A program made the translations under genes and the position numbers. Under the pieces are notes generated by a model, which did no database searches, was not told the origin of the DNA, and worked only from the letters and a program-made list of their open reading frames with translations. A stretch of 38,492 bases of DNA from Dehalococcoidales bacterium (GTDB lineage: Bacteria; Chloroflexota; Dehalococcoidia; Dehalococcoidales; CSSed11-197): positions 1-38,492 of the forward strand of contig JAQWDO010000001.1 in assembly GCA_028705415.1 (NCBI GenBank), read 5' to 3'. Positions within the stretch are counted from its first letter, which is position 1. Each line of letters starts with the position of its first letter. This document shows, in pieces, positions 2,478-15,457 of the stretch.

Positions 2478-2909
2478 TTACTGTCGGCGGTGCCGTCTTG
2501 TTTGGGCTTCCCGTATCATGTGGCTTGCACAATACGGGCACTCTTCCGGTTCCTTATAATCGTTGCGGTACAGTACTCGCCAGCTTTCACCGCAATTACA
2601 GCATTTCCAGCGAACCCTTATGCCTCGCACGTCTCCGGCAGAAACCACAATTATCATGTCTTCGCTCAAAGCAACAGCAACCTTGCGCCTTGCCTCTGCC
2701 AATATTCGCTGGAAGGTAGATCTGGCAACATCCATCGTCTCACACGCCTGGGTTTGATACTGGCCTTCAACCTCAACCAGCCTGAGTGCTTCCAGCTCTT
2801 CCGGCAGCAAGACAACCGTTTGACAGCTGGACAACCTGACACCGACTGGCTTGAATATCTTAACCTGGTGGTGTTTCCTCAAGCGCCGATTCTTGCGGGG
2901 TCTCGGCAT
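2478..2909 (-). CDS. DUF134 (UPF0251) family putative DNA-binding protein with C-terminal CxxC...CxxC zinc ribbon
   Basis: The N-terminus MPRPRKNRRL..FKPVGV..VVLLPEELEALRLVEVEGQYQTQACETMDVARSTFQRILAEARRKVAVAL is the typical DUF134 pattern. The C-terminal extension carries KCCNCGESW...ECPYCASH. The start overlaps the stop of the upstream ORF (TAATG). Confidence 0.8.
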   Translation of the reverse strand: MPRPRKNRRLRKHHQVKIFKPVGVRLSSCQTVVLLPEELEALRLVEVEGQYQTQACETMDVARSTFQRILAEARRKVAVALSEDMIIVVSAGDVRGIRVRWKCCNCGESWRVLYRNDYKEPEECPYCASHMIREAQTRRHRRQ

Positions 2910-3172
2910 TATTCACTCTCAGCATGCCTTCTGTGCGGATGCCTTCTTCTGCCGCCGGCTGCGACCTGTGGCTTGTTTTCGCCCCCACCGCATGGCAGCC
3001 AGACCAGTTCAGCTCCAGTACTTTTGGCAATCGCTTCCAGCTCGGCTTTCCTCAAATGGGTCTTGTAAAACTTCAGCTTGCTATCATCACCATTAACACA
3101 TACAACGGCAAAACGGGGCTCCCCGTCACCTGCGGTAACAGCACTGCGCTCTCTAACAAAAATCTGCTTCAT
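2909..3172 (-). CDS. Small hypothetical protein (87 aa) with basic Arg/His-rich C-terminal tail, first gene of the DUF134 operon
   Basis: AAAGGAGGAAGCC precedes the ATG at 3172. A near-consensus promoter lies upstream and the gene is translationally coupled to the DUF134 gene. The tail reads GGRRRHPHRRHAESE. No family recognised. Confidence 0.6.
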   Translation of the reverse strand: MKQIFVRERSAVTAGDGEPRFAVVCVNGDDSKLKFYKTHLRKAELEAIAKSTGAELVWLPCGGGENKPQVAAGGRRRHPHRRHAESE

Positions 3173-3324: not shown

Positions 3325-3353
3325 TTGACTCTTAATAACATTTGAACTAGAAT
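3325..3353 (+). promoter_or_regulatory. sigma70-type promoter upstream of the Hyf-like operon (TTGACT-N17-TAGAAT)
   Basis: TTGACT at 3325-3330, a 17-nt spacer, then TAGAAT at 3348-3353. Confidence 0.45.
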
Positions 3354-3392
3354 AACTGACATACGAACATAGACCCTTATTTTTTACAAGAC

Positions 3393-3424
3393 AGGAAGCC
3401 CTGACGGGGCTTCCTTTGCTTTTG
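3393..3424 (+). terminator. Intrinsic-terminator-like hairpin inside the leader of the Hyf-like operon (possible attenuator)
   Basis: AGGAAGCCC-tgacg-GGGCTTCCT gives a 9-bp stem with a 5-nt loop (3393-3415). It is followed by TTGCTTTTGGG, and the operon ATG lies 25 nt further on at 3449. Confidence 0.5.
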
Positions 3425-3448
3425 GGCATGCTGGTTTTTAATATTTAA

Positions 3449-5386
3449 ATGATAACAACCCTGCTCCTGGTTAGTATGGCCATTATTCTGGCGGCTGGCG
3501 TTTTAGCCCTTTCAGGCTTGATTCAACCGAATATTGTCTGGCGCCGTTTGAGCCTGTTGTTGATGCTGCCCGGCCTGGCAGGAATAATTGTTGCCAGCGT
3601 TTGGGTTATGGCCGGGGATTTGCAGGTTTTGATCCCCCTTTTTGAAGTCAGTGAACTGCTGGCGGTAAATTTCTACCTGGACAGGCTATCTGCATTTTTC
3701 ATACTGATAATCTGCGTTGTCAGCGCGTGTGTAACGGTATACTCCCTGGGTTATGTCGAACACCAGCCGGAACCTGCGCAGCGCCAGTGGTCTATCGGGC
3801 TGATGGCGATATTTATCCTATCGATGATAGGGGTAGTTGCCTCAGAAAACTACTTCGCCCTCCTGCTTAACTGGGAAATCATGTCCCTGAGTTCCTTCTT
3901 CCTGGTGATTCTTGAACGTAAACAAGCCGAAAATATCAAGGCTGGGATCTACTATCTGGTGATGACTCAGCTCAGCACTGTTTTCCTGTTTTTCTCCTGC
4001 CTTGTAACCTACTCTTCAACCGGGTCCATGGCTGTAAATGCTTCTATGCCCGCCATGGCGAATCTTAGCCTGGTTCTTGCCGGCTTCCTGCTTGGCTTTG
4101 GCACCAAGGCTGGCCTTATCCCTTTGCACAAATGGCTTCCATATGCCCATTCAGCAGCCCCTTCCAATATATCTGCACTGATGTCGGGAGTTATGCTTAA
4201 GGTAGCAATATATGGGCTGGCCAGAATCACACTAAACCTGGAATCTATACCATTAGGCTGGGGTTTAGTACTACTGGGGATGGGAACGCTCTCAGCAGTC
4301 CTGGGCGTGATTTACGCGCTTAAAGAGCATGACCTTAAGAAGCTGCTTGCCTACCACAGTATTGAGAATATTGGCATTATCGTCATAGGCCTGGGGCTTT
4401 ACAGTATTTTTACATTTTACAGCCTGGAATTACTGGCGCTCGCGAGCCTGGCCGGTGCTCTTTTCCACTCCCTCAACCATGCGCTTTTTAAAGCCCTGCT
4501 TTTTATGTGCTCCGGCAACGTAATCAATGCTGTTTCAACCCGCAATATTGAACAAATGGGAGGGTTGGTCAAACGTATGCCAGCCACTGCTGGCATCTTT
4601 TTGGTGGGAGCGGCTGCCATTTCTGCCCTGCCGCCTTTAAACGGCTTTGCCAGTGAGATTTTATTATTCCAGTCATACCTGGGAGCTTTCCAGATACCCA
4701 GTTTATTTGTTGCAATCGGGGTTTTTGCCTCCCTTGCAGCATTTGCCCTGATGAGCGCCCTTGCTGCTGCCTGTTTTGTAAAGGCATTCGGGATCACCTT
4801 TCTGGCCATACCCCGTTCTGAAGCGGCCGCACAAGCTCACGAGGCAAGTCCAAGCATGATAGCCGCTCCGGCAATCCTGGCCGGCCTTTGTGTAATACTC
4901 GGTGTCGGCTCATTTCATTTCTTTAACATGATGGGGCTTAACCTGCCTGTACCCAATTTGCTTCCGGTAACCATTATAATCATCACAGTTGTGCTCATTG
5001 CGTTCTTAATGATCCGGTATCTGAAAATCCCGGTTAGAAAAATTGAAACCTGGAATTGCGGCTCAGCAAATATCGACTCCCGCACGGAATACACAGCTAC
5101 CGGGTTTTCTCAACCGATACTTAATTTTTTCAGCCCGATTTTTCGCACCAGAGAGATGGTTGAACGAAGTTTTACCGACGTTTTCAGGTCAGTTCTCCAC
5201 CATGGTAAGGCAGAAATTAAAACCATGCAGATTTTCGAAGAGCGTATCTATCTGCCTGTTGCCCGGTTTGCCATGCGTATAGGGCGCTGGGTATCCAACT
5301 GGCAAAACGGAGATCTGGATAACTTTATCCTGTACGGATTTATTGCCATTGTCATTTCTATCCTGGCAGCCGGATGGTGGTTGTAG
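3449..5386 (+). CDS. HyfB/HycC-like (NuoL/Mrp antiporter-type) membrane subunit
   Basis: 645-aa polytopic protein with the NuoL/HyfB pattern (PLHKWLPYAHSAAPSNISALMSGVMLKVAIYGLAR, AYHSIENIGII). First gene of a tightly packed six-gene operon. No clear Shine-Dalgarno before the ATG at 3449, so the start is uncertain. Confidence 0.85.
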   Translation: MITTLLLVSMAIILAAGVLALSGLIQPNIVWRRLSLLLMLPGLAGIIVASVWVMAGDLQVLIPLFEVSELLAVNFYLDRLSAFFILIICVVSACVTVYSLGYVEHQPEPAQRQWSIGLMAIFILSMIGVVASENYFALLLNWEIMSLSSFFLVILERKQAENIKAGIYYLVMTQLSTVFLFFSCLVTYSSTGSMAVNASMPAMANLSLVLAGFLLGFGTKAGLIPLHKWLPYAHSAAPSNISALMSGVMLKVAIYGLARITLNLESIPLGWGLVLLGMGTLSAVLGVIYALKEHDLKKLLAYHSIENIGIIVIGLGLYSIFTFYSLELLALASLAGALFHSLNHALFKALLFMCSGNVINAVSTRNIEQMGGLVKRMPATAGIFLVGAAAISALPPLNGFASEILLFQSYLGAFQIPSLFVAIGVFASLAAFALMSALAAACFVKAFGITFLAIPRSEAAAQAHEASPSMIAAPAILAGLCVILGVGSFHFFNMMGLNLPVPNLLPVTIIIITVVLIAFLMIRYLKIPVRKIETWNCGSANIDSRTEYTATGFSQPILNFFSPIFRTREMVERSFTDVFRSVLHHGKAEIKTMQIFEERIYLPVARFAMRIGRWVSNWQNGDLDNFILYGFIAIVISILAAGWWL

Positions 5387-5391
5387 TAATT

Positions 5392-6324
5392 ATGACAGTA
5401 ATCTACTACCTGCTAAACCCGCTTTTTATTCTTTTGATATCTCCCCTGTTTATGGGCATTATCAAAAAAATAAAGGCAATGGCCCAGGGCAGAACCGGCG
5501 CTCCGGTCTGGCAGCCATATTTTACCCTGCACAAGCTGTTTAAAAAAGAGATAATTTATTCCGATAATTCTTCGTTCATAATGAAAGTGGCTCCATACTT
5601 AAACATCGGTTTTACAATTGGGGCCGCTACCCTGGTACCGGTGCTGTTTTTACCCCCCGAAGGGTCAGTCCCGGCAAATATCATCCTGTTTTTGTACCTG
5701 TTGGTATCCGCCAAGTTCTTTATGGCGCTGGCCGGGCTTGATGCCGGCTCCGTTTTTGGCGGAATGGGCAGCTCGCGCGAGATGAGCCTTTCTGCCATTG
5801 CCGAACCGATTACCATAATCACCTTTGCAGCTATCGCCTTCGTGCTCAATACTACTGATATCACACAAATGTTTGCCACAACTGCATCAAACTCGCTGAC
5901 GGAATTTCCCACGCTCCTGCTTACCGGGGTGTCACTGTTTATTATTTTAATCATAGAGACGGCGAGGGTACCGGTAGACAACCCGGAAACCCACCTTGAG
6001 CTTACCATGGTCCATGAAGCCATGATTATTGAGCAATCCGGCCCCAACCTGGCCCTGATGGAGATCAGCCATGCTGTCAAACAGACACTGCTCATGGCTG
6101 TGCTGATAAACCTGCTCTTTCCACTGGGAATGCCTGATAGTTTTACGTTTGCAGGTGTTGCCCTGGGTATGGTCAGTTTTGCTGCTAAAGGCTCCATACT
6201 ATGCGTGATAATAGCCATTTTTGAAACCAGCCTGGCAAAAATCAGGTTTTTCCGCCTGCCAAGCTTCTTTATGGTGGCTCTTTTTCTTTCTTTTGTAACC
6301 ATTGTATTTGAGCTGATATTATGA
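5392..6324 (+). CDS. HyfC/HycD-like (NuoH-type) membrane subunit
   Basis: LISPLFMGIIKKIKAMAQGRTGAPVWQPYFTLHKLFKKE matches the HycD/NuoH N-terminal signature. The listed ORF starts at 5374. I prefer the ATG at 5392 (MTVIYY), just after the upstream stop and following GGTGG. Confidence 0.85.
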   Translation: MTVIYYLLNPLFILLISPLFMGIIKKIKAMAQGRTGAPVWQPYFTLHKLFKKEIIYSDNSSFIMKVAPYLNIGFTIGAATLVPVLFLPPEGSVPANIILFLYLLVSAKFFMALAGLDAGSVFGGMGSSREMSLSAIAEPITIITFAAIAFVLNTTDITQMFATTASNSLTEFPTLLLTGVSLFIILIIETARVPVDNPETHLELTMVHEAMIIEQSGPNLALMEISHAVKQTLLMAVLINLLFPLGMPDSFTFAGVALGMVSFAAKGSILCVIIAIFETSLAKIRFFRLPSFFMVALFLSFVTIVFELIL

Positions 6325-6998
6325 ACGACCCGCTTTTGATTGCGGTTATAATAAGGATACTGCTGGTGCTGATCCTGGGCACTGCAGTGCTTGTGATTAC
6401 CCAGCGCTCCCTGAGATCTCTTTTTACAATCTACTCGATCCAGTCTCTTTTGCTGGCATTACTGGCACTGGTTCTGTACTGGCAGGAAGGGATTTTCAGC
6501 CTGCTTTTAATCAGCTTGCTGACACTGGTCAGCAAGGCAATAGTTATCCCCCTGTTTTTACGCCGCCTTTTACGGAAAATACCTATTAAAAGAGACCTGG
6601 AATTCAGATATTTGACCCCTATCAGCTCGATACTGGTCAGCATCGGGTTACTTTTTGGTGTTTACCGGTTATTTTACAAGTTGAGCGACGAGTTGAATTT
6701 TGAGCCCCTTTTCCTGCTTGGCACCGTCATCGGAGTATCTCTTGCGCTTATGGGGATGATGGTAATTTTTAGCCGCCGCAAGGTTATCACCAAAACCGTC
6801 GGTTACCTTACCATGGAAAACGGGGTATTGCTTTTCGGTTTATTTGTGGCCGAACTGCCTTTTATTATTGAAGTACTGATTCTGGTGGACTTGCTGATGA
6901 TTCTGGTACTGGCCAGCCTGCTGGCTTTTGGTATAGATTCCACCATTGAATCTTTCCACGAACGCTTGCGTAACTTTGGAATGGAAGCAGAAGAATAA
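6321..6998 (+). CDS. HyfE-like small polytopic membrane subunit
   Basis: 225 aa with about 7 hydrophobic segments. Its size and position between the NuoH-like and NuoN-like genes match hyfE. It overlaps both neighbours (4 nt and 1 nt). Confidence 0.65.
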   Translation: MNDPLLIAVIIRILLVLILGTAVLVITQRSLRSLFTIYSIQSLLLALLALVLYWQEGIFSLLLISLLTLVSKAIVIPLFLRRLLRKIPIKRDLEFRYLTPISSILVSIGLLFGVYRLFYKLSDELNFEPLFLLGTVIGVSLALMGMMVIFSRRKVITKTVGYLTMENGVLLFGLFVAELPFIIEVLILVDLLMILVLASLLAFGIDSTIESFHERLRNFGMEAEE

Positions 6999-8473
6999 TG
7001 GCTGAGAATATTATCTGGATATCGGGCATACCAGCGCTTCTTTCATCAGGCCTGGTGCTGTTGGTTTCCCGCTGTTTCAAACGTGCCGGCAACCATCACT
7101 ACAGCTTGCTGGCCATAATACAGGCGGTAATATATATGGGGCTGAGCATCTGGATGGCCAGCTTAAACCGCCCGGTAGAATTATCCGGCAATGGTTATTT
7201 TTATATGGATACGCTGGCTGTTTTTGAAATACTGATTACGGCTGCGTTATTTTTACTGGCAGCAATATACTCCCGCGGGTATATAGACAGCCTGCTCAAG
7301 CAAGAAGAAATCGAAGAATCACTGCTTCCCGTTTTCTATGGGTCTTTCTGTTTGCTTGAGACAGTTCTTATAATGGGCTTTTTATCCAACAACCTGGCGC
7401 TTTTATGGATATTTATAGAACTCTCAACCATATTTTCAGCCGTGCTTATAGTTACTCTGAAAGCCAGGGAAAATATTACCGCTGCGCTTAAATACGTTTT
7501 CGTGGCATCTACCTCCATGCTGTTTACTTTCATGGGCATCATCATTCTGTTTAGTTTGAGCCAGGAAGCAATCAGCGGCGGGAGCCTCAACTGGAACAGC
7601 CTGATGGAAAACGCAGCCGGTTTTAACCAGAGTGCTTTCAACGTCGCCTTTATCCTGATGCTTATCGGTTTTGGAGCCAAATCGGGGATGGTCCCCTTCC
7701 ATACCTGGATGCCGCAAGCGTATGCTAAAGCTCCTTCAGCGGTATCGGTAATGTATGGCCCGGTACTTAACCTGGGGCTGTTTGCCATTATCCGCTTATT
7801 TTCTATCAGTCATCAGACGGGTGACACCGGGCTGGTGAATACAACCCTGCTTTCGATTGGAACGCTGACCATAGGTGTGGCAGCTTTTAGCCTGCTTGCC
7901 AGAACCAATACCAAAAAAGTCATTGCATTTTCTGCCATAGAACAAACAGGGCTTGCCCTGGTTGGTATGGGGCTCGCCAGCCCGCTGGCATTTTTCTGGG
8001 TGGTTTTCAACCAGCTTGCCCAACCCTTTATTAAAGCACTGCTGTTTTTTTCAGCAGGAATATGGCACCGGCAATATCTTTCCAACAAATTCAGTGCAGT
8101 TATCCAGCCGATGAGCCATCAGCCACTCGCCAGCATCGGGCTTATTGCCGGCATAGCCGCGGCTGCAGGTACGCCGCTGCTGCCGGTTTTTCTGGTCAAA
8201 TTCAATATACTCAGCGTGCTGGCAGAAAAACCACTGTTGTTCTTCGTAGTTCTTTTATTATTTATGGTTGTGGCTGCCGGCATGGGATATTACTTCCTCA
8301 GGGCTTTCAGCCAGAAGGGTGAAGCAGAAATCGGTCTGTTTAAAACACCGCTTTCAATGAAAGTGCCGATAATCGTTTGTATGGTGATTATTCTGATCCT
8401 CGGCGTGCACGTACCCTCGTGGTTAACCGGCATTATAAATACTATTTGTGCTGAACTGGGGATATGCGCATGA
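6998..8473 (+). CDS. HyfF-like (NuoN/NuoM antiporter-type) membrane subunit
   Basis: 491 aa with the antiporter-like motif GAKSGMVPFHTWMPQAYAKAPSAVSVMYGPVLNLGLFAIIR. Confidence 0.85.
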   Translation: MAENIIWISGIPALLSSGLVLLVSRCFKRAGNHHYSLLAIIQAVIYMGLSIWMASLNRPVELSGNGYFYMDTLAVFEILITAALFLLAAIYSRGYIDSLLKQEEIEESLLPVFYGSFCLLETVLIMGFLSNNLALLWIFIELSTIFSAVLIVTLKARENITAALKYVFVASTSMLFTFMGIIILFSLSQEAISGGSLNWNSLMENAAGFNQSAFNVAFILMLIGFGAKSGMVPFHTWMPQAYAKAPSAVSVMYGPVLNLGLFAIIRLFSISHQTGDTGLVNTTLLSIGTLTIGVAAFSLLARTNTKKVIAFSAIEQTGLALVGMGLASPLAFFWVVFNQLAQPFIKALLFFSAGIWHRQYLSNKFSAVIQPMSHQPLASIGLIAGIAAAAGTPLLPVFLVKFNILSVLAEKPLLFFVVLLLFMVVAAGMGYYFLRAFSQKGEAEIGLFKTPLSMKVPIIVCMVIILILGVHVPSWLTGIINTICAELGICA

Positions 8474-10038
8474 TGGATATCGTTACAACCGGGCTAATGA
8501 CTCACCTTGAATCCAGGCAAATTGGCAGCCGTTTCTCCCGGGGGGAAGGTGGGGAATACTATTTGCGCGTTCCCGGCGATGGAATCATAGAAGCTGCCGG
8601 ATGGCTGGCTAACCGGGAAGATCTTGCCCTTATCGGCATTTGGGCAGTTCCAGGCCATGAAAAAGATTGTCTTGAACTATACTATGCCTTTGAATTAAAG
8701 CAACCGTCCCCAGCCCTGGTTATGATTGCCGAGGTTAAAAACAACCAGGCGCCTTCCATATACAAAATATTCCCGGCAGCAATCAACTTTGAACGCAGAG
8801 CCAGAGACTGGTACGGCCTGGATTTTACCAGCCTGCCCGATACCCGCCGCCTGCTCCTGCACGAAGCCTACCCGGCAGATTTCCACCCAATGGTCGATTC
8901 AGATCCAGAGACACTTTCAAGTAACCTGGCCACTACCGAATACTCATTCAAGAAGTTTGAAGGCGAAGGCCTTTACCAGGTTCCGGTAGGCCCTGTGCAT
9001 GCCGGAATTATAGAACCGGGCCATTTTCGCTTCAGCGTTATCGGGGAAACCATTTTCAACCTCGAGTTAAGGCTGGGATATAAACACCGGGGCTTAAACA
9101 AACTGGCTGAAGGTAAAACCGTAGCTGAGGTAAACAAATTATCAGAGAGCATCAGCGGGGATGAAAGCGCGGTTAATGCCTGCTCTTTCTCACTGGCAGT
9201 AGAAAAGATAGCCGGCGCTGAACTCCCAAAACGAGCATGGGAGTTGCGAACGATCCTCCTTGAAATGGAGCGCCTGTACTCTCACCTTGGGGATCTGGCA
9301 GGAATGCTGGTAGATGTAGGTTACCCAATCGGGGCTTCTCCGTTCTTTATTCTTCGAGAGGAAATAATGCGCTGGAACGCCACCTTTACCGGTTCCAGAT
9401 TTCTCAAGGGTGCAATTATACCGGGTGGATTAAGCCGGGATATAGAAGATGGTATGCTCCAGAAGTTCAAGTTTTTTCTGGTTACTTTTTCCCGCCGCAT
9501 GAGAAAGGCACTGTCTGATGTTGATGAATCTGCCTGGGTAATTGACAGGTTCGAAACTACCGGAATTGTATCACCGGAACTGGTAGCGCCTCTGAGCCTC
9601 AGCGGACCGGTAGCCCGTGCTTCCGGCTATGATGGTGATACCAGGCAGTTGCACACTTACGGAGTTTATACGGGTTTAAAGTATACGATACCGGTTAAAA
9701 CCTCCGGTGACGTGCTGGCCAGGTTCAGGGTAAAAGCAGAGGAAGCGGCTTCTTCAATTGATATAATAAGTGAAACCATTGCCCGTTGCTCTCCCGGGCC
9801 GGTTTTTTCGGGTTTTGACCCGGGATCCGGCCAGGCCATAGCAATGCTTGAAGCTCCACGAGGCCGGAATATTCACTGGCTGAGAGTAAAAAACGGCACA
9901 GTTGAGCACTGGGAGGTGATCACCGCTTCCTTCTGTAACTGGCCGGCCATTGAACATGCCGTCATAAACAACATCCTGCCGGATTTTCCGGTGATAAATA
10001 AAAGCTTTAATTTATCCTACGCTGGAAACGATCTTTAA
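8464..10038 (+). CDS. HycE/HyfG-like large subunit (NuoC-NuoD fusion) lacking all [NiFe]-ligand cysteines
   Basis: The NuoC-like part has FPAAINFERRARDWYGLDF. The NuoD/HycE-like part has VGPVHAGIIEPGHFRFSVIGE and LEAPRGRNIHW. SESISGDESAVN (9142-9177) replaces the RxCGxCxxxH motif. The terminal FNLSYAGNDL (10006-10035) replaces DPCxxCxxR/H. Confidence 0.85.
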   Translation: MRMMDIVTTGLMTHLESRQIGSRFSRGEGGEYYLRVPGDGIIEAAGWLANREDLALIGIWAVPGHEKDCLELYYAFELKQPSPALVMIAEVKNNQAPSIYKIFPAAINFERRARDWYGLDFTSLPDTRRLLLHEAYPADFHPMVDSDPETLSSNLATTEYSFKKFEGEGLYQVPVGPVHAGIIEPGHFRFSVIGETIFNLELRLGYKHRGLNKLAEGKTVAEVNKLSESISGDESAVNACSFSLAVEKIAGAELPKRAWELRTILLEMERLYSHLGDLAGMLVDVGYPIGASPFFILREEIMRWNATFTGSRFLKGAIIPGGLSRDIEDGMLQKFKFFLVTFSRRMRKALSDVDESAWVIDRFETTGIVSPELVAPLSLSGPVARASGYDGDTRQLHTYGVYTGLKYTIPVKTSGDVLARFRVKAEEAASSIDIISETIARCSPGPVFSGFDPGSGQAIAMLEAPRGRNIHWLRVKNGTVEHWEVITASFCNWPAIEHAVINNILPDFPVINKSFNLSYAGNDL

Positions 10039-10040
10039 AA

Positions 10041-10562
10041 ATGCACAAAATCATAAGAAATATATTCAGTAGAAAGCTTTCATCCGTTAAAGACCCGACC
10101 ACGGAAGATTTCGAAATTACTGGCTTACAACTCAAGGAACATGTATGCAGGGTTTTTGGCCGCAGCCTGGCCATACGCGAGCTCGATTCAGGCTCGGATA
10201 ACTCTGCTGAGATCGAGCTAAACAACCTCAGCACTCCACATTATGATATCGAAAGGTTTGGAGTTAGCTTTGTTGCTTCTCCAAGGCATGCTGATGTGCT
10301 CCTTATCACCGGGGCAGTTACCCGCAACATGCAGGAAGCTGTAATGAAAACTTATGCCGCAATGCCCCGCCCCTGCTGGGTGATTGCCGTTGGGGACGAT
10401 GCCTGTGGCGAAGGGCTATTAAATGGCAGCTACGGAGTTCTTGGTGGAGCAGACAAGGTCCTGCCAGTAGATTTTAAAATCCCCGGAAACCCACCCGCTC
10501 CATTAGAAATAATGCAAGGCCTGGCTTCATTCATGGAAAGCATTCGCCAGCCGAAAGCCTGA
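10041..10562 (+). CDS. HycG/HyfI-like (NuoB-type) small subunit lacking three of four [4Fe-4S] cysteine ligands
   Basis: YDIERFGVSFVASPRHADVLLITGAVTRNM and VLPVDFKIPGNPPAP are NuoB/HycG signatures. GSDNSAE replaces GSCNGCE, and PGNPP replaces PGCPP. Only C122 (GDDACGEG) remains near a ligand position. Confidence 0.8.
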   Translation: MHKIIRNIFSRKLSSVKDPTTEDFEITGLQLKEHVCRVFGRSLAIRELDSGSDNSAEIELNNLSTPHYDIERFGVSFVASPRHADVLLITGAVTRNMQEAVMKTYAAMPRPCWVIAVGDDACGEGLLNGSYGVLGGADKVLPVDFKIPGNPPAPLEIMQGLASFMESIRQPKA

Positions 10563-10635: not shown

Positions 10636-11013
10636 TTATTCATTTTCCATTACTTCAAGGTGCTTTTTAAAAATTTTCGGGTGGGGCGCTTTAACGACCA
10701 TAAATTCCAGTATTTGGTCATCACGGTTACTAACATTCATTCTGGTGTTAAAGGGAATTTTCACAATCTGCCCATACTTATAAACATGGGGCTCCTGATC
10801 ATCCAGCCTGAGGGACAAATTGCCTCGCATTACGATCATATAAACATTGGAATTTGAGTAATGTTCGGGAAGAGCGGCATCTTTTGGCAGAATCATATGG
10901 TTGATCTGAGCCGCATCATCCTGAACGATCTGTTCAATTGTTTTTTCCTCTTTAGTTGAATAGTTAAATATATTCTCTATCATGGAGCACCTGCCGTTTT
11001 TAATCTGAGTCAT
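10636..11013 (-). CDS. Cupin-domain protein
   Basis: 125 aa. The segment ILPKDAALPEHYSNSNVYMIVMRGNLSLRLDD...GQIVKIPFNTRMNVSN has the two-motif cupin beta-barrel look. It lies downstream of the Crp/Fnr gene on the same strand. Confidence 0.5.
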   Translation of the reverse strand: MTQIKNGRCSMIENIFNYSTKEEKTIEQIVQDDAAQINHMILPKDAALPEHYSNSNVYMIVMRGNLSLRLDDQEPHVYKYGQIVKIPFNTRMNVSNRDDQILEFMVVKAPHPKIFKKHLEVMENE

Positions 11014-11102
11014 GGGAGCATCACCCTGCCGATAACAGCACTAGCTCAATTGCTTGATGATCCTGCTCTCCTATAATCCTTTTGTATATATACTATTATT
11101 AC

Positions 11103-11795
11103 TCACTGAATTGAATTCTCCAGCTTTAAAATATCGTTAATGGTAATATTCGAACCTTTAAACTCAATAATACCATCATCACGCATCAAGGCCATTTCTC
11201 TGGATAAAGACGGTCGCGGGATATTCAGATAATCTGCAAGCTCGTGTCTTTTCATTGCCAGAACGAAATCTTTATTACCTGTATCCAGATATAAATCAAG
11301 CAAATAGCTGCTGATCCTGCCTCTAATGTTTTTAGCCGAGATATGCTCAATTTTTTTATCTAACATTGAAGCCCGGTTGGACAAAATCTGAAGCATGTTC
11401 ATAATGAGCGTGCTGTGTGAAGTACAGATATTTGAGCAAGTCCCGGTTATCTTGTCCGGCGGCAGAAAAAGCAGGACGCAATCCTCCTGGGCTATAACCG
11501 TCATAGGCCAAATTCTGTGGTCGGAAAAGGCTACAATCTCCCCGAATATATCACCAGCTTCGAGTATCCCCATAATAATACGGTTGCCGGAATATGTTTC
11601 CTTTGTAAGCGCCAACTTGCCACAGGCAATAATGCCGATGCCTTGAAACGGCTGGCCATGGACAGCGACAATCTCCCGTTGTTTATATTCGCGCACTGCT
11701 GGCTTCAGACAGCCAAGCATAACATTCAGAGAATCGCTGGAGATATTTCGAAAAAGTAAAGCAGACTTTAAAGTATCAATCCATTCCAAATACAT
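11103..11795 (-). CDS. Crp/Fnr-family transcriptional regulator (HcpR-like by context)
   Basis: It has an N-terminal cNMP-binding-like beta-roll (GDIFGE) and a C-terminal HTH (RHELADYLNIPRPSLSREMALMRDDGII). It is divergent from hcp. Confidence 0.8.
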   Translation of the reverse strand: MYLEWIDTLKSALLFRNISSDSLNVMLGCLKPAVREYKQREIVAVHGQPFQGIGIIACGKLALTKETYSGNRIIMGILEAGDIFGEIVAFSDHRIWPMTVIAQEDCVLLFLPPDKITGTCSNICTSHSTLIMNMLQILSNRASMLDKKIEHISAKNIRGRISSYLLDLYLDTGNKDFVLAMKRHELADYLNIPRPSLSREMALMRDDGIIEFKGSNITINDILKLENSIQ

Positions 11796-11812
11796 CTAAA
11801 ACCTTCTATATG

Positions 11813-11826
11813 GTAACACACGTTAC
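11813..11826. promoter_or_regulatory. Inverted repeat GTAAC-N4-GTTAC, candidate Crp/Fnr (HcpR-type) box
   Basis: A perfect 5-N4-5 palindrome in the 110-bp crp/hcp divergent region. It has the same geometry as the FNR box TTGAT-N4-ATCAA. -10-like hexamers (TATTAG 11846-11851, GATTAT 11851-11856) lie 20-30 bp downstream toward hcp. Confidence 0.45.
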
Positions 11827-11905
11827 AGCTTTCATTTTGCCATTGTATTAGATTATATCTGACAGTGCAAATGGACTGTAAATAAAAAAAATTGGGAGGC
11901 AAATA

Positions 11906-13468
11906 ATGAATGACATGTTCTGTTTTCAATGCGAGCAGACAGCCAGGGGTACCGGCTGTACCAAAACAGGTGTCTGTGGCAAGAACCCTGATGTATCGCG
12001 AAAGCAAGACGAGTTGACCTGTTCCCTGATAGGACTGGCACGCTCTGCTGAGGGGAAAATACCGGGCAAAAACGCTGATGAACTGATGATGCAGGGCCTT
12101 TTCGCAACCCTGACCAACGTCAACTTCGATCCTGAACGCATTGATGAGCTTAAGATGCGGATTGAAACCGAAAAGGGGAAACTTGGCGGTGGCAAAGATT
12201 ATGACCCGGATAACCTCTTCCAGGGTGAAACTGATATTGTTTCTCTCCGCTCGACACTCCTTTTTGGAATGAGGGGCATGGCGGCGTATGCCTGGCATGC
12301 TCATATACTCGGTAAGGATGATTCCGAAGTTACTGCCTGGCTTTACAAAGGGATGAGAGAGATCGGCGCAGATCACGAAGTGGATAAGTGGTTATCCCTG
12401 ATTATGGAATTCGGACAGATCAATCTCAAGTGTATGGCCTTGCTGGATGAAGCCAACACTTCAGCTTACGGACACCCCGTACCTGCCACGGTAAGCATGA
12501 AAGTAGAAAAGGGGCCGTTTATCGTAGTTACTGGCCATGACCTGCTGGACCTCAAACACCTTCTCGAGCAAACAGAAGGTAAGGGAATCAATATTTACAC
12601 CCATGGCGAGATGCTGCCTGCACACGGCTACCCGGAACTGAGGAAGTATTCCCATCTGAAAGGCAATTACGGAACTGCGTGGCAAAACCAGCAGAAGGAA
12701 TTCGACCACCTGCCAGCACCAATTCTTTACACCACCAACTGTATCATGCCACCAAGGGAAACCTATGCCGAAAACATATTCACCACAGCAGTGGTTGGTT
12801 ATCCGGGGCTCAAGCATGTGCCGGACAAGGATCAAAAGAAAGACTTCACTCCGGTTATTGAAAAAGCGCTTGAGTTGGGTGGCTGGGACGAGGACAAGCA
12901 GTTCACCGGGATTAACGGGGGAACAGAACTGATGACCGGCTTTGCCAGAAATACGGTGATGGGAGTGGCAGACAAAGTTATTGAAGCGGTGAAATCAGGA
13001 GATCTCAAGCACATCTTTTTGGTGGGCGGCTGTGATGGAGCCAAACCTGGACGTAACTACTATACTGAATTCGTAAAACAGACTCCGGCCAATACGATAG
13101 TACTGACCCTTGCCTGTGGCAAATTCCGCTTTAACGACCTCAACATTGGCGAGCTTGCAGGCCTGCCACGTTTACTCGACATGGGGCAATGCAATGATGC
13201 CTATTCAGCCATCCATGTAGCTGCTGCACTGGCAAAGGCATTTGATTGCAGTGTCAACGACTTACCGCTTTCCATGGTGATCTCATGGTACGAACAAAAA
13301 GCAGTTTGTATTTTGCTTACGCTTCTGTCTCTTGGAATCAAGAACATCTACCTTGGGCCTTCATTGCCTGCTTTCATATCTTCCGCTGTGCTTAATGTCC
13401 TGGTGGAAAAGTTCGACCTTAAACCAATTTCAACTCCCGAAGCTGATATGAAGGCTATGTTAGGGTAA
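11906..13468 (+). CDS. hcp: Hybrid cluster protein (hydroxylamine reductase)
   Basis: The N-terminus MFCFQCEQTARGTGCTKTGVCGK is the Hcp cubane-cluster motif. GGGAGG lies 8 nt before the ATG. 520 aa. Confidence 0.9.
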   Translation: MNDMFCFQCEQTARGTGCTKTGVCGKNPDVSRKQDELTCSLIGLARSAEGKIPGKNADELMMQGLFATLTNVNFDPERIDELKMRIETEKGKLGGGKDYDPDNLFQGETDIVSLRSTLLFGMRGMAAYAWHAHILGKDDSEVTAWLYKGMREIGADHEVDKWLSLIMEFGQINLKCMALLDEANTSAYGHPVPATVSMKVEKGPFIVVTGHDLLDLKHLLEQTEGKGINIYTHGEMLPAHGYPELRKYSHLKGNYGTAWQNQQKEFDHLPAPILYTTNCIMPPRETYAENIFTTAVVGYPGLKHVPDKDQKKDFTPVIEKALELGGWDEDKQFTGINGGTELMTGFARNTVMGVADKVIEAVKSGDLKHIFLVGGCDGAKPGRNYYTEFVKQTPANTIVLTLACGKFRFNDLNIGELAGLPRLLDMGQCNDAYSAIHVAAALAKAFDCSVNDLPLSMVISWYEQKAVCILLTLLSLGIKNIYLGPSLPAFISSAVLNVLVEKFDLKPISTPEADMKAMLG

Positions 13469-13602: not shown

Positions 13603-13678
13603 TGGTGGAGATAGGGGGATTCGAACCCCCGACCTCGGCGATGCGAACGCCGCGCTCTCCCAATTGAGCTATATCCCC
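13603..13678 (-). tRNA. tRNA-Ala (anticodon CGC)
   Basis: The reverse complement folds as a cloverleaf: GGGGATA-TA-GCTC-AATTGGGA-GAGC-G-CGGCG-TTCGCAT-CGCCG-AGGTC-GGGGG-TTCGAAT-CCCCC-TATCTCC-A-CCA. It has the G3:U70 alanine identity pair and an encoded CCA. Confidence 0.93.
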
Positions 13679-13796
13679 ACTGAGGAATTATTATAGCATA
13701 CGGCTACACCGGTTAAAATCAGCTTTACTCGTTCCGCTGATTTTCGGGGACTGCTTTCCTTGTTTGCCTTGCTCGATTATTGCTGGCGTCAAGTCA

Positions 13797-13854
13797 TGTT
13801 TCCGTATGTACGGGCACAATCCGTGTGAGATTCTTCGCTTACGCTCTGAATGAC
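13797..13854 (-). repeat. Solo inverted copy of the repeat-family core
   Basis: The minus strand reads GTCATTCAGAGCGTAAGCGAAGAATCTCACACGGATTGTGCCCGTACATACGGAAACA. At 58 nt it has the same length and end motifs as the core at 1420-1477. Confidence 0.8.
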
Positions 13855-13958
13855 ATATCAAGAGGTGATTACCCAATACGGTTAAAATCCTGCTCGGCCA
13901 GCTTGAAACCGATAAATCGGGCAATCTGGGATAATTATAATCCTGCCGGAAGCCTTTC

Positions 13959-13987
13959 TTGTAAGCTAAAAACAATGTTGTTATACT
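13959..13987 (+). promoter_or_regulatory. sigma70-type promoter of gatB (TTGTAA-N17-TATACT)
   Basis: TTGTAA at 13959-13964, a 17-nt spacer, then TATACT at 13982-13987. The -10 ends only 12 nt before the gatB ATG. Confidence 0.45.
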
Positions 13988-13999
13988 TAACAGGTTAAA

Positions 14000-15457
14000 A
14001 TGAACCCAGAATTTGAAACCGTAATTGGCCTTGAAGTACACGCCCAGCTTACCACACGCAGCAAAATGTTTTGCCGGTGCGGCTCTGATTATGCCAGCGC
14101 TGAACCCAACACTCGTACCTGCCCGGTTTGCCTTGGTATGCCCGGAGTCCTGCCGACAATTAACCGGCAGGCAGTTGAAAATACCATCCTCACCGCCCTC
14201 GCTCTTAACTGCCAGGTCCCGGAGCGCGCCAAGTTCGACCGCAAAAATTACCCTTACCCGGACCTTGTAAAAGGTTATCAGATAAGTCAGTACGATGAGC
14301 CATTCGGGTTGGGTGGCTGGATAGAAGTTGAAACCGATGGGAATTCCCGCCGTTTGGGTATTACCCGTGTACACCTTGAAGAAGATGTCTGCAAACTCCT
14401 CCACCGCGGCACCGGCAGCAATGGATACAGCCTGGTTGATGCCAATCGAAGCGGAGTTCCTCTTATGGAAATAGTAAGCGAGCCGGATATGCGCTCTCCC
14501 GCCGAAGCCCGTAACTATCTGATAAAACTCAGAAGCATTTTGCGTTATCTGGGAGTATCGCTGGCCAACATGGAAGAAGGCAGTTTCCGCTGTGATGCCA
14601 ATATTTCCATCCGGCCGAAGGGTTCGGAAGAGCTGCTTGCCAAGGTTGAAGTAAAAAACATGAACAGCCTGAAAGCCGTATACCGCGCGCTTGAATTCGA
14701 GGCTGAACGTCAGAGAAAGGCATTCATCAACGGTGAAAAAATAAACCAGGAGACTCGCGGCTGGGTAGAAGAAACCGGAAAAACCGTCAGCCAGCGCAGC
14801 AAGGAATATGCACATGATTACCGGTATTTTCCAGAGCCCGATTTGCCTCCTCTTGAAGTCAGCCGGGAATGGGTAGAAAATATCCGGTGCCGGATGCCGG
14901 AGCTTCCCGATCAGCGGTGCCAGCGTTTTATAAAAGATTATTCATTATCTGATTACGACGCCGGAATACTCACTGCAAGTAAAGAAGCGGCAGATTATTT
15001 TGAAACCGTACTCAGTGAGTCCGGGCGCTCCCCCAAAGAAGTCGCCAACTGGATAGCCGGGCCGGTTTCCGGGATTATAAATGCTCAGGGCATTGATTTT
15101 GAAGACTTTGGCAAAAAGGTTTCACCGGAAGAAATGACCGGGTTACTTAAGCTTGAAGGCAGTGGTTCAATCAATATGGCAACAGCCAAAACAGTACTGG
15201 AAGAAATGTTTAACACCGGAAAGAGCGCGGCAACCCTGGTTAATGAAAAGGGATTGACCCAGATCAGCGGTTCTGAGGAACTGGACCAATTTGCCGTTCA
15301 AGTTATTGAAGCCAATCCATCCGCAGTAGCAGATTTCAAGGCCGGCAAAGAACAGGCTCTCAAGTTTTTAATCGGGCAGATGATGCGGCTGACCAGAGGA
15401 AGAGCCAACCCGGAAATTGCTGCGGATATTTTAAAACGCAAGCTGGAGGAATATTAA
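14000..15457 (+). CDS. gatB: Asp/Glu-tRNA amidotransferase subunit B
   Basis: [55 protein letters not shown] and the C-terminal GatB/YqeY-like region. Confidence 0.95.

What the first reader, a model, noticed from the sequence alone, without database searches (positions are those of the whole stretch)
3449..10562. Six-gene Hyf-like operon: intact ion-translocating membrane arm with a redox-dead peripheral arm and no electron-input module
**Seen in sequence**
- The gene order is HyfB-like (645 aa), HyfC/HycD-like, HyfE-like, HyfF-like, Cys-less HyfG/HycE-like, then Cys-poor HyfI/HycG-like.
- The junctions are overlaps of 4, 1 and 10 nt, a 5-nt gap (or a 13-nt overlap with the listed start) and a 2-nt gap, which implies one translationally coupled unit.
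- The window has no HycF/HyfH/NuoI-type 2x[4Fe-4S] subunit, no HycB/HyfA, no formate dehydrogenase, CO dehydrogenase or ferredoxin partner, and no hyp or hycI maturation genes.
- All six ORFs are full length with no frameshifts, so the operon does not look like a decaying pseudogene cluster.

**Established knowledge**
- Hyf/Hyc/Mbh/Ech modules couple a redox reaction at the NuoB/NuoD interface to ion translocation by the NuoH and antiporter-like subunits.

**Inference**
- With no cofactors the coupling site cannot be driven by electron transfer in the usual way.
- One possibility is a Mrp-like cation/proton antiporter that retains a structural or regulatory cap.
- Another is a membrane dock or ion-coupling module for another respiratory enzyme encoded elsewhere.
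- A third is a non-redox ligand-driven or hydration-type activity at the old active site, analogous to the CO2-hydrating variants of cyanobacterial NDH-1.
- This is the best candidate in the window for an uncharacterised system.
Basis: partly seen in the sequence, partly recalled or inferred. Interest (0 to 1): 0.8.

Follow-up and report, generated by a model that had tools for sequence, protein, structure and literature searches.

The report
Cofactor-free hydrogenase-like Ehr membrane complex
This six-gene operon encodes a membrane complex related to hydrogenases and respiratory complex I that keeps its ion-pumping part but has replaced every metal-binding cysteine with conserved acidic or polar residues; the family (Ehr) is known, databases mislabel it as a hydrogenase, and its function is still unknown.

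Summary
Six tightly packed genes at 3449-10562 (+) encode HyfB-, HycD/NuoH-, HyfE-, HyfF-, HycE/NuoCD- and HycG/NuoB-like proteins. All four NiFe cysteines of the large subunit are gone. All four [4Fe-4S] ligands of the small subunit are also gone, not merely most of them. No ferredoxin-like, formate dehydrogenase or hyp gene is in the window.

The locus is not a new kind of system. It belongs to the known Ehr class (energy-converting hydrogenase-related complexes), whose function the literature still calls unknown. The window comes from a Dehalococcoidales genome.

- The operon falls in a distinct, 100%-bootstrap subclade. It occurs in Dehalococcoidia, several methanogens, Bathyarchaeia and Altiarchaeota.
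- In this subclade the lost ligands are replaced by invariant residues: SGDE and NLSYAG in the large subunit, D53, D120 and N150 in the small subunit.
- The small subunit is the most conserved of the six proteins.
- The ionisable residues of the membrane arm match those of real hydrogenase relatives.
- dN/dS is 0.15-0.3.

The gene order is conserved across Bacteria and Archaea, with no conserved partner gene.

Most likely mechanism (inferred, low confidence): redox-independent ion translocation, with the acid-lined former cofactor pockets acting as an ion-binding or gating site.

The parts
3325..3353 (+). Promoter-like site of the operon (TTGACT-17-TAGAAT)
   Evidence: Consensus scan, 10 of 12 matches. 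The -35 and -10 hexamers are conserved upstream of ehrA in two other Dehalococcoidales loci, L081 and L084. No experimental evidence.
3393..3415 (+). Leader hairpin (10-bp stem, 3-nt loop) followed by a T-rich tail, about 30 nt before the ehrA start codon
   Evidence: Terminator-like hit. RNA centroid -17.1 kcal/mol. The same stem sequence plus T-rich tail lies upstream of ehrA in L081, L001 and L002, with different loops. No Rfam family matches. Its role as attenuator or operator was not tested.
3449..5386 (+). ehrA: HyfB/HycC-like antiporter-type subunit, 645 aa
   Evidence: PF00662 + PF00361. NF006418 'hydrogenase membrane subunit' scores 763 bits against a cutoff of 794. Best PDB match is HycC, 7z0s_C, E=3e-66. 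E143, K220, H227, H234, K251, H340, H344, K348 and E403 are invariant in the subclade and in hydrogenase relatives.
5374..6324 (+). ehrB: HycD/NuoH-like subunit, 316 aa (310 aa if it starts at ATG 5392)
   Evidence: PF00146. Best PDB match is HycD, 7z0s_D, E=7e-35, with the alignment starting at residue 7. E144, E195, R198, D202, H207, E209, E215, E220, K236, K272, E284, K289 and R291 are conserved in all three classes.
6321..6998 (+). ehrC: HyfE-like small membrane subunit, 225 aa, no Cys
   Evidence: NF008556 'hydrogenase 4 membrane subunit', E=6e-17. A profile of orthologues weakly matches the MrpC/NuoK-like subunit MbsG (6u8y_G) at the MENG motif, E=0.019. K72, R152, E166 and D190 are conserved in all three classes, and E184 in this subclade and in hydrogenases. 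E178 is specific to this subclade.
6998..8473 (+). ehrD: HyfF-like antiporter-type subunit, 491 aa
   Evidence: PF00361. NF006427 scores 498 bits against a cutoff of 511. PDB matches are MBS and MBH antiporter-like subunits and MrpD. E141, K228, H235 and K346 are invariant. TM8 carries Asn, as in genuine Hyf-type hydrogenase relatives. TM12 is Lys in 14 of 16 members of the subclade.
8464..10038 (+). ehrL: fused NuoC + NuoD/HycE-like large subunit, 524 aa, with no NiFe ligands
   Evidence: PF00329 + PF00346. HycE 7z0s_E, E=9e-62, with all four ligand Cys replaced. 120 of 120 closest homologues carry SGDE[ST] and NLSY[AS]G. AlphaFold model pLDDT 85.3; best fold match HycE, TM 0.87.
10041..10562 (+). 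ehrS: NuoB/HycG-like small subunit, 173 aa, with no [4Fe-4S] ligands
   Evidence: PF01058. Aligned to HycG, MbhJ and PSST; the four ligand positions read D53, A56, D120 and N150. Among the window protein plus its 120 closest homologues: D53 121/121, D120 121/121, N150 119/121, C122 120/121. It is the most conserved of the six subunits in the subclade.

Best explanation
**Identity (well supported)**
- The operon encodes an Ehr-type complex (energy-converting hydrogenase-related), named EhrA-D, L and S by analogy with Geobacter.
- It is a six-subunit relative of hydrogenase-4, formate hydrogenlyase and complex I.
- It belongs to a distinct subclade that has lost both the NiFe site and the proximal iron-sulfur cluster, and that has no ferredoxin-like subunit.
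- It is therefore neither a hydrogenase nor an electron-transfer enzyme of the usual kind.

**Mechanism (inferred, low confidence)**
- The complex moves ions across the membrane without redox chemistry.
- The two antiporter-like subunits (A, D), the NuoH-like subunit (B) and the NuoK/MrpC-like subunit (C) keep the full Glu/Lys/His relay used by complex I, MBH, FHL and Mrp.
- The L/S cap no longer injects energy from electrons.
- Its former cofactor pockets are lined by invariant carboxylates and amides: D233, E234 and D284 in L; D53, D119, D120 and N150 in S.
- These pockets would act as a fixed negative charge or a cation/proton-binding site that gates or loads the NuoH-type channel.
- The net activity would be a secondary cation/proton exchange, Mrp-like, or a gradient-driven ion movement.
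For: **Shown**
- Family assignment of all six proteins.
- Loss of all eight metal ligands.
- The replacements are themselves invariant across 120 large and 120 small subunits.
- The subclade is monophyletic in 100 of 100 bootstraps and is nested among Ehr that keep the FeS ligands.
- The ABCDLS gene order is conserved across Bacteria and Archaea in a scan that matched at least 594 species genomes.
- No ferredoxin-like ORF occurs in any of the 18 subclade loci, and no partner gene is conserved.
- Membrane-arm ionisable residues are invariant and identical to those of genuine hydrogenase relatives.
- The subclade has gained further invariant charges:
  - A: K228, K292.
  - B: E59, E313.
  - C: E178.
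  - L: E234, K207.
- dN/dS is 0.15-0.32.
- The small subunit is the most conserved protein (63% mean identity against 44-57% for the others).
- Loss of FeS ligands with Asp, Glu, Asn or Ser replacements recurs in other lineages. It is seen in the loci L064 (candidate-phyla-radiation Magasanikbacteria) and L072 (Firestonebacteria), and in 23 of 131 representative clusters.

**Established knowledge**
- Mrp antiporters use the same antiporter-like subunits without any redox input.

**Inference**
- The link from the acidic pockets to gating or ion loading is an inference.
Against: - No transport or binding assay exists for any Ehr.
- Mrp works without a NuoB/NuoD cap. The very strong conservation of the cap therefore argues for more than a structural lid, and fits a chemical or ligand-binding role equally well.
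- The subclade descends from Ehr that keep an FeS cluster and sometimes a 2x[4Fe-4S] subunit.
- Geobacter Ehr proteins rise on formate (PMC7894505). The ancestral function was therefore probably redox-linked.
- Complexome profiling of Dehalococcoides mccartyi found no abundant membrane complex other than the organohalide respiration complex and ATP synthase (PMC6005880). If its 'Hyc' is an orthologue, it is at low abundance there.
- A non-cysteine-ligated metal centre in the D/D/C/N pocket cannot be excluded from sequence.
Confidence: 0.4

Rival explanations
1. The complex is a membrane coupling module for a redox enzyme encoded elsewhere, for example a formate dehydrogenase, another hydrogenase or a ferredoxin-dependent enzyme. 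The partner docks on the L/S cap and drives ion translocation through conformational or electrostatic changes. Electrons do not pass through EhrS.
For: - Other authors propose FDH-Ehr complexes for FeS-containing Ehr (PMC6349859).
- Geobacter Ehr subunits are more abundant on formate (PMC7894505).
- The cap is highly conserved, as expected for a docking surface.
- The subclade is nested in Ehr that keep clusters.
Against: - No partner gene is conserved next to any of the 18 subclade loci or in the close Dehalococcoidales relatives.
- With no cluster in EhrS and no NuoI-like subunit, there is no path for electrons to the coupling site.
- The operon is also found in organisms named as DPANN archaea (Aenigmarchaeota, Woesearchaeota). 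These are not expected to have many respiratory partners; that expectation rests on general knowledge.
Confidence: 0.2
2. The former cofactor pockets now hold a different, non-cysteine-ligated centre or a substrate. An example would be a mononuclear divalent metal bound by Asp/Asp/Asn/Cys122 or by Ser/Asp/Glu. The complex would then couple a non-redox reaction, or binding of a ligand such as CO2/bicarbonate or a metal ion, to ion translocation.
For: - Residues at or beside the lost ligand positions are invariant, including D119 and a nearly invariant C122 next to D120, and S231, D233, E234, D284, S518 and Y519 in L.
- Replacement by carboxylates recurs in independent lineages.
- A beta-class carbonic anhydrase gene (PF00484, E=9e-48) lies one or two genes upstream of the operon in two Methanoregula, one Methanospirillum and one Methanocella locus.
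Against: - The carbonic anhydrase link is limited to related methanogens, is on the opposite strand, and is absent from the window and the other loci.
- No known metal-site motif was recognised by Pfam or NCBIfam.
- No coordinates were available from the model to test the geometry.
Confidence: 0.2
3. The operon encodes a genuine group 4 [NiFe] hydrogenase or formate hydrogenlyase, as public annotations say ('Ni,Fe-hydrogenase III large/small subunit', 'formate hydrogenlyase', 'hydrogenase HycE').
For: - Names given by the sources.
- A faint PF00374 match at residues 455-489.
- The Dehalococcoides literature lists 'Hyc' among the NiFe hydrogenases (PMC6383490, PMC8516407).
Against: - All four NiFe ligands and all four proximal-cluster ligands are absent here and in all 120 closest homologues of each subunit.
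- Genuine hydrogenase relatives recovered in the same scan keep RICGxC, ELCYxC and four small-subunit Cys, and form a separate clade.
- No hyp or endopeptidase genes are in the window.
Confidence: 0.01
4. The operon is a decaying relic of a hydrogenase operon with no function.
For: Loss of all cofactor ligands.
Against: - All six genes are full length.
- dN/dS is 0.15 for L and 0.32 for S against an 89%-identical relative, and below 0.1 against a 71%-identical one.
- The replacement residues are invariant across Bacteria and Archaea.
- The six-gene order is kept in most of the 80 loci fetched from genomes of many phyla.
Confidence: 0.02

Closest known systems
Ehr complexes (energy-converting / Ech-hydrogenase-related; Geobacter sulfurreducens EhrA-D, EhrS, EhrL, GSU0739-45; class defined by Marreiros et al. 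2013)
   Same: - Large subunit homologous to group 4 hydrogenases but without the CxxC pairs.
- Operon with NuoH-like, HyfE-like, two antiporter-like and NuoB-like subunits.
- Function unknown (PMC7894505, PMC6349859, PMC10284858).
- The window's L branches inside the Cys-less clade, apart from genuine hydrogenases.
   Different: - Most Ehr recovered here keep all four [4Fe-4S] ligands in the small subunit, and some carry an extra 2x[4Fe-4S] subunit between L and S.
- The window's subclade has neither. It has E at the second ligand position of L, D/D/N in S, and extra invariant membrane charges.
E. coli hydrogenase-4 (hyfABCDEFGHIJ) and formate hydrogenlyase-1 (Hyc; PDB 7Z0S)
   Same: - Gene order HyfB-C-E-F-G-I.
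- The best sequence and fold matches for four subunits are HycC, HycD, HycE and HycG.
- NuoC is fused to the large subunit.
   Different: - No HyfA/HycB, HyfD, HyfH/HycF, HyfJ or formate dehydrogenase.
- No NiFe ligands and no FeS ligands.
- L ends three residues after the former C-terminal motif, so there is no C-terminal extension beyond the motif.
- 27% identity to HycE.
Mrp multisubunit cation/proton antiporters (PDB 6Z16, 7QRU, 7D3U)
   Same: - Antiporter-like subunits with the TM5 Glu, TM7 Lys, TM8 Lys, TM11 His/Lys and TM12 Lys/Glu pattern.
- A small MrpC/NuoK-like subunit (weak match).
- No redox cofactors.
   Different: - Mrp has MrpB, E, F and G, and has no NuoH-, NuoB- or NuoD-like subunits.
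- The window has a NuoH-like subunit and a conserved cytoplasmic cap.
Pyrococcus furiosus MBH and MBS (PDB 6CFW, 6U8Y)
   Same: - Homologous L, S, NuoH-like and antiporter-like subunits.
- MBS is a precedent for a hydrogenase relative that lost the NiFe site.
   Different: MBH and MBS keep the three [4Fe-4S] clusters, have a full Mrp-type module and are ferredoxin-driven.
Respiratory complex I and photosynthetic NDH-1
   Same: - Shared module of NuoB, C, D, H and antiporter-like subunits.
- NuoD also lacks the NiFe cysteines.
   Different: - Complex I keeps cluster N2 and NuoI, and has NuoA, J and K and a quinone site.
- Here the N2 ligands are gone and NuoI is absent.
'Hyc' operon of Dehalococcoidia (six genes, listed among the hydrogenases of Dehalococcoides and Dehalogenimonas)
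   Same: - The Dehalogenimonas protein named 'hydrogenase HycE' (P0036) is 52% identical and carries the same SGDES and NLSYAGNDL motifs.
- NF006418 and NF006427 ('hydrogenase membrane subunit'), the names given to D. mccartyi hyc products (PMC8516407), score just under their cutoffs.
   Different: - Orthology to D. mccartyi DET1570-1575 itself was not tested here, because no sequence was in hand.
- The literature treats Hyc as a NiFe hydrogenase (PMC6383490), which the sequence does not support for the members seen here.

Membership tests
Group 4 [NiFe] hydrogenase (Hyc/Hyf/Ech/Mbh) | Two CxxC pairs in the large subunit that bind Ni and Fe (N-terminal RxCGxCxxxH, C-terminal DPCxxCxxH/R) | tested here: not met
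   ISGDES and NLSYAG occupy these positions. The same holds in 120 of 120 closest homologues. Genuine relatives from the same scan have RICGxC and ELCYxC.
Group 4 [NiFe] hydrogenase (Hyc/Hyf/Ech/Mbh) | Four Cys in the small subunit that bind the proximal [4Fe-4S] cluster | tested here: not met
   The four ligand positions read D53, A56, D120 and N150.
Group 4 [NiFe] hydrogenase (Hyc/Hyf/Ech/Mbh) | Ferredoxin-like 2x[4Fe-4S] subunit (HycF/HyfH/EchF/MbhN) and Hyp maturation genes in the genome | tested here: inconclusive
   Neither is in the 38.5-kb window nor within 10 kb in the 18 subclade loci. The rest of the genome was not available.
Ehr (energy-converting hydrogenase-related complex) | Large subunit homologous to group 4 hydrogenases but lacking the NiFe-binding cysteines | tested here: met
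   HycE is the best match, E=9e-62, TM 0.87. The ligands are absent. The definition is as given in PMC6349859 and PMC10284858.
Ehr (energy-converting hydrogenase-related complex) | Operon with NuoB-like, NuoH-like and antiporter-like membrane subunits | tested here: met
   the ABCDLS order is shared with the other Cys-less loci.
Ehr (energy-converting hydrogenase-related complex) | Phylogenetic placement with other Cys-less large subunits, apart from genuine hydrogenases | tested here: met
   Neighbour-joining tree of 79 large subunits. The hydrogenases form a clade in 84 of 100 bootstraps, and the window lies within the Cys-less part. This is a distance tree, and the named Geobacter reference sequence was not included.
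Respiratory complex I (Nuo/NDH-1) | Cluster N2 in NuoB, NuoI with two clusters, and NuoA, J and K | tested here: not met
   The N2 ligands are replaced. No NuoI-, NuoA- or NuoJ-like ORF is in the operon. L and S score below all the Nuo equivalog cutoffs; S just reaches the cutoff of the NuoB subfamily model NF005012 (116.6 against 116).
Mrp cation/proton antiporter | Seven (or six) subunits MrpA-G, with no NuoH, NuoB or NuoD homologues | tested here: not met
   Only MrpA/D-like and a weak MrpC-like match are found. NuoH-, NuoB- and NuoCD-like subunits are present. Failing membership does not exclude an Mrp-like activity.

The most novel reading that the evidence does not exclude
The subclade would be a naturally cofactor-free complex-I-type machine. 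Both metal centres have been replaced by selected carboxylate- and amide-lined pockets. The coupling apparatus of complex I, MBH and FHL would then be driven or gated by binding of an ion, proton or small ligand at the old active site, instead of by electron transfer. The same solution has arisen more than once: in this subclade, in the candidate-phyla-radiation and Firestonebacteria loci, and in other FeS-less NuoB-like clusters.
Probability: 0.25. Interest if true: 0.8.

Novelty: new variant of a known kind. Interest (0 to 1): 0.55.

Why it matters
**Annotation**
- Genes of this subclade are labelled in public records as Ni,Fe-hydrogenase III, formate hydrogenlyase, HycE, NuoB or NuoC.
- Metabolic reconstructions of Dehalococcoidia, methanogens and sediment archaea therefore over-count hydrogenases.

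**Mechanism**
- How chemistry at the NuoB/NuoD/NuoH junction drives the distant antiporter-like subunits is a long-standing question for complex I and its relatives.
- This is a widespread, strongly conserved relative with an intact membrane arm but no redox centre at that junction.
- It is a natural test case. If it moves ions, the coupling machinery can run on something other than electrons.

**Physiology**
- Dehalococcoides strains, relatives of the host of this window, lack quinones and cytochromes (PMC10772276).
- From general knowledge, the methanogens of the orders seen here also lack them.
- A cofactor-free ion translocator could matter for their ion and energy balance.

**Caveat**
- The Ehr class has been known since 2005/2013.
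- The two founding papers could not be read here, so the FeS-less subclade may already have been noted there.

Tried and rejected
1. Genuine hydrogenase or FHL: rejected on the ligand positions.
2. Pseudogene relic: rejected on dN/dS and on the invariance of the replacement residues.
3. CO dehydrogenase partner in the window: the Prismane-family gene is a hybrid-cluster protein with a Crp/Fnr-type regulator beside it. The pair is not conserved next to the operon in relatives.
4. Conserved partner genes:
   - Clustering of all flanking ORFs in 80 loci gave only generic families: two-component systems, ABC ATPases, and Usp in archaeal FeS-keeping Ehr.
   - It also recovered the 2x[4Fe-4S] ORF, which is restricted to FeS-keeping loci.
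5. DUF134, orf87 and the cupin as operon members: all three are conserved only in the 71%-identical relative.
6. A degenerate HyfF-like subunit: the TM8 Asn first looked like a loss, but genuine hydrogenase relatives have the same Asn.
7. Riboswitch in the leader: no Rfam match at gathering score or at E up to 10.
8. Solved structures:
   - phmmer of the HyfE-like subunit against the PDB found nothing.
   - A profile gave only a weak MrpC-like match.
   - No solved structure is closer than HycE at 27% identity.
9. Reading Marreiros et al. 2013 failed because the paper is not held. Coppi 2005 was not looked up, so neither founding paper was read.
10. Orthology to D. mccartyi Hyc could not be tested directly.
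11. The AlphaFold output gives no coordinates, so distances between the replacement residues could not be measured.

Full report
**What is there**

- The window has six co-oriented ORFs at 3449-5386, 5374-6324, 6321-6998, 6998-8473, 8464-10038 and 10041-10562.
- Pfam and NCBIfam assign them as follows:
  - a HyfB/HycC-like antiporter-type subunit;
  - a HycD/NuoH-like subunit;
  - a HyfE-like subunit;
  - a HyfF-like antiporter-type subunit;
  - a fused NuoC + NuoD/HycE-like large subunit;
  - a NuoB/HycG-like small subunit.
- The A/B junction is either a 13-nt overlap or a 5-nt gap. The alignment to HycD starts at residue 7, so ATG 5392 is the likelier start.
- I use the Geobacter names EhrA-D, L and S for the six products.

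**Cofactor sites**

- In the residue-by-residue alignment to E. coli HycE (7z0s_E, E=9e-62), the RVCGIC and DPCYSC motifs correspond to ISGDES and NLSYAG. All four NiFe ligands are gone.
- The large subunit still has four cysteines elsewhere (69, 240, 442, 491).
- Aligned to HycG, MbhJ and complex I PSST, the four ligand positions of the small subunit's proximal [4Fe-4S] cluster read D53, A56, D120 and N150.
- The one nearby cysteine, C122, sits two residues after the third ligand position. The small subunit has therefore lost all four ligands, not three of four.

**Rest of the window**

- The other ORFs are housekeeping genes, among them gatB, aspartate kinase, gyrA, ruvABC, uvrB, ftsK, RNase J and groES.
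- There is no ferredoxin-like, formate dehydrogenase or hyp gene.
- One Prismane-family gene at 11906-13468 is a hybrid-cluster protein (hydroxylamine reductase), not a CO dehydrogenase. A Crp/Fnr-type regulator lies beside it.

**Source and relatives**

- The closest proteins come from Dehalococcoidales metagenome-assembled genomes (100% and 89% identity).
- Dehalogenimonas species follow at about 52%.
- In nearly all of them the order A-B-C-D-L-S is kept, in both Bacteria and Archaea.

**Three classes among the loci**

1. Genuine group 4 hydrogenases: RICGxC, ELCYxCxDR and four Cys in the small subunit.
2. Cys-less large subunits (R[IV]SGDx, NLSY[AS]GND) whose small subunit keeps all four Cys. 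Several have an extra 2x[4Fe-4S] ORF between L and S (Pfam Fer4).
3. The window's type: SGDE[ST] in L and D / variable / D / N in S.
   - It is found in Dehalogenimonas, Dehalococcoidales, Methanosarcina, Methanoregula, Methanospirillum, Bathyarchaeia, Altiarchaeota and Moduliflexus.
   - Source names add Aenigmarchaeota and Woesearchaeota.

**Phylogeny of the large subunit**

- In a neighbour-joining tree, class 3 is monophyletic in 100 of 100 bootstraps.
- It is nested among class 2, apart from the hydrogenases, which form a clade in 84 of 100.
- Two loci, Magasanikbacteria of the candidate phyla radiation (L064) and Firestonebacteria (L072), have a separate FeS-less pattern (D, C, D, D). 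They lie in another clade, so the loss occurred at least twice.

**Is it functional?**

- The replacement residues are themselves invariant:
  - 120 of 120 closest large subunits carry SGDE[ST] and NLSY[AS]G.
  - Among the window protein plus its 120 closest small subunits, D53 and D120 are 121/121, D119 and C122 are 120/121, and N150 is 119/121.
- The small subunit is the most conserved of the six proteins within the subclade (63% mean identity to the window, against 44-57% for the others).
- dN/dS against an 89%-identical relative is 0.15 for L, 0.32 for S and 0.14 for the end of D. Against a 71%-identical relative it is below 0.1, with dS saturated.
- An AlphaFold model of L is confident (pLDDT 85.3, pTM 0.89). 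Its best solved match is HycE (TM 0.87, 27% identity). Nothing closer is in the PDB copy.

**Membrane arm**

- Alignments to HycC, MbhH, MrpA/D, MBS and complex I subunits locate the canonical relay residues.
- Class-wise conservation shows they are invariant in the subclade and identical in the genuine hydrogenase relatives:
  - EhrA: E143, K220, H227, H234, K251, H340, H344, K348, E403.
  - EhrD: E141, K228, H235, K346, plus a TM12 Lys in 14 of 16.
- The TM8 Asn of EhrD is also Asn in the genuine hydrogenases, so it is not a defect.
- The NuoH-like EhrB keeps E144, E195, R198, D202, H207, E209, E215, E220, K236, K272, E284, K289 and R291 in all classes.
- The subclade has also gained invariant charges that the other classes lack:
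  - A: K228, K292, D577, D624.
  - B: E59, E313.
  - C: E178, D206.
  - L: E234, K207, H498.
  - S: K146.
- All Ehr share D233 and D284 in L, and E47 and E71 in S.

**Neighbourhood**

- No gene is conserved next to the operon across the subclade.
- In the window:
  - A divergent DUF134 gene (2478-2909, minus) and an 87-aa ORF lie upstream.
  - A cupin gene (10636-11013, minus) lies downstream.
  - All three recur only in the 71%-identical relative.
- Another Dehalococcoidales relative has a glycine-betaine-type ABC transporter downstream.
- A beta-class carbonic anhydrase lies one or two genes upstream in four methanogen loci.

**What is known**

- Complexes of this kind are called Ehr. They are related to group 4 hydrogenases but lack the Ni and Fe ligands (PMC6349859, PMC4758237).
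- HydDB excludes them as homologues that do not metabolise H2 (PMC5037454).
- Their function 'remains unknown' (PMC10284858; similarly PMC10432482).
- Geobacter sulfurreducens Ehr proteins are detected and are more abundant on formate (PMC7894505).
- An FDH-Ehr complex has been proposed for other lineages (PMC6349859).
- Ehr were reported in Chloroflexi only in a 2021 preprint (10.1101/2021.08.23.457424).
- The Dehalococcoides literature still lists 'Hyc' as a NiFe hydrogenase (PMC6383490, PMC8516407).
- I found no accessible text describing the FeS-less subclade. The founding paper of Marreiros et al. 2013 is not held, and Coppi 2005 was not looked up.

**How it most likely works**

- Shown:
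  - There are no canonical metal sites.
  - The ion-translocating arm is intact and under selection.
  - The cap is strongly constrained.
  - The six-gene unit is self-contained.
- Inferred:
  - The complex moves ions without redox input.
  - The carboxylate- and amide-lined former cofactor pockets act as a fixed negative charge or a cation/proton site that gates or loads the NuoH-type channel.
  - The net result would be an Mrp-like exchange or a gradient-driven flux.
- I give this mechanism about 0.35-0.4.
- Two rivals remain open at about 0.2 each: a docking module for an enzyme encoded elsewhere, and a new non-cysteine metal or ligand site.
- The recurrence of FeS-ligand loss with Asp, Glu, Asn or Ser replacements fits either of the two non-docking readings. 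It is seen in 23 of 131 representative NuoB-like clusters nearest the query, with several origins on a rough tree.

**Verdict**

- The system is a member of a known but functionally unassigned class. It falls in a subclade that differs in a mechanistically important way.
- Interest is moderate to high for bioenergetics. The annotation consequences are practical and immediate.

Noticed in passing
window 3325-3448: The operon leader has a promoter-like site (3325-3353). About 40 nt downstream is a perfect 10-bp hairpin, AGGAAGCCC-tga-cGGGGCTTCCT (3393-3415), with a T-rich tail, about 30 nt before the start codon. The same stem sequence and tail lie upstream of ehrA in L081, L001 and L002, with different loops. 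No Rfam family matches. It may be an attenuator or a palindromic operator.
   Followed up: partly
window 2478-3172 (minus strand): A DUF134 protein (143 aa, with two C-terminal CxxC pairs) and an 87-aa ORF are transcribed divergently from the operon. A strong promoter-like site (TTGACA-17-TATATT, 3252-3224) lies upstream of them. The pair is conserved at 70-83% identity in the 71%-identical relative only. The longer + strand ORF 2490-3068 is probably spurious.
   Followed up: partly
window 10636-13468: A cupin gene (10636-11013, minus) sits convergent to the operon; homologues recur just downstream of ehrS in L081-L083 and about 3 kb downstream in L086. Next come a Crp/Fnr-type regulator (11103-11795, minus) and a hybrid-cluster protein / hydroxylamine reductase (11906-13468, plus), a typical regulator-plus-hcp pair.
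   Followed up: partly
L013, L016, L017, L037 (one or two genes upstream of ehrA): A beta-class carbonic anhydrase gene (PF00484, E=9e-48) lies close to the operon in two Methanoregula, one Methanospirillum and one Methanocella locus, on the opposite strand. It is absent from the window.
   Followed up: partly
proteins P0254-P0402 (representatives related to the small subunit): About a fifth of the nearest NuoB-like representative clusters (23 of 131 full-length) lack at least two of the four cluster ligands. Their patterns include DVDD, DEDS, DDDS, NEGD and SAES. A rough tree suggests several independent origins.
   Followed up: partly
L064, L072: The loci L064 (candidate-phyla-radiation Magasanikbacteria) and L072 (Firestonebacteria) carry a separate FeS-less small subunit (GSDNAC, GDDAI, GDPP). 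Its gene is placed upstream of ehrA, giving the order S-A-B-C-D-L.
   Followed up: no
public records of P0001-P0253: Source names for these proteins are inconsistent and misleading. The large subunit is named 'NADH-quinone oxidoreductase subunit C', 'Ni,Fe-hydrogenase III large subunit', 'formate hydrogenlyase subunit 5' or 'hydrogenase HycE'. The small subunit is named 'formate hydrogenlyase', 'NuoB' or '[NiFe]-hydrogenase III apoprotein, small subunit'.
   Followed up: yes
L012: An Altiarchaeales locus shows a second A-B-C-D set a few genes downstream of the first operon.
   Followed up: no
window 13603-13678 (minus) and 13691-14815 (minus): A tRNA-Ala (anticodon CGC) is present. The 374-aa minus-strand ORF with no Pfam match overlaps gatB (14000-15457, plus) and is probably not a gene.
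   Followed up: no
L084/L085 12350-15413: In another Dehalococcoidales relative, the genes right after ehrS (opposite strand) encode an OpuAC-type glycine-betaine ABC transporter. This is a single instance of an osmotic-stress neighbour.
   Followed up: no
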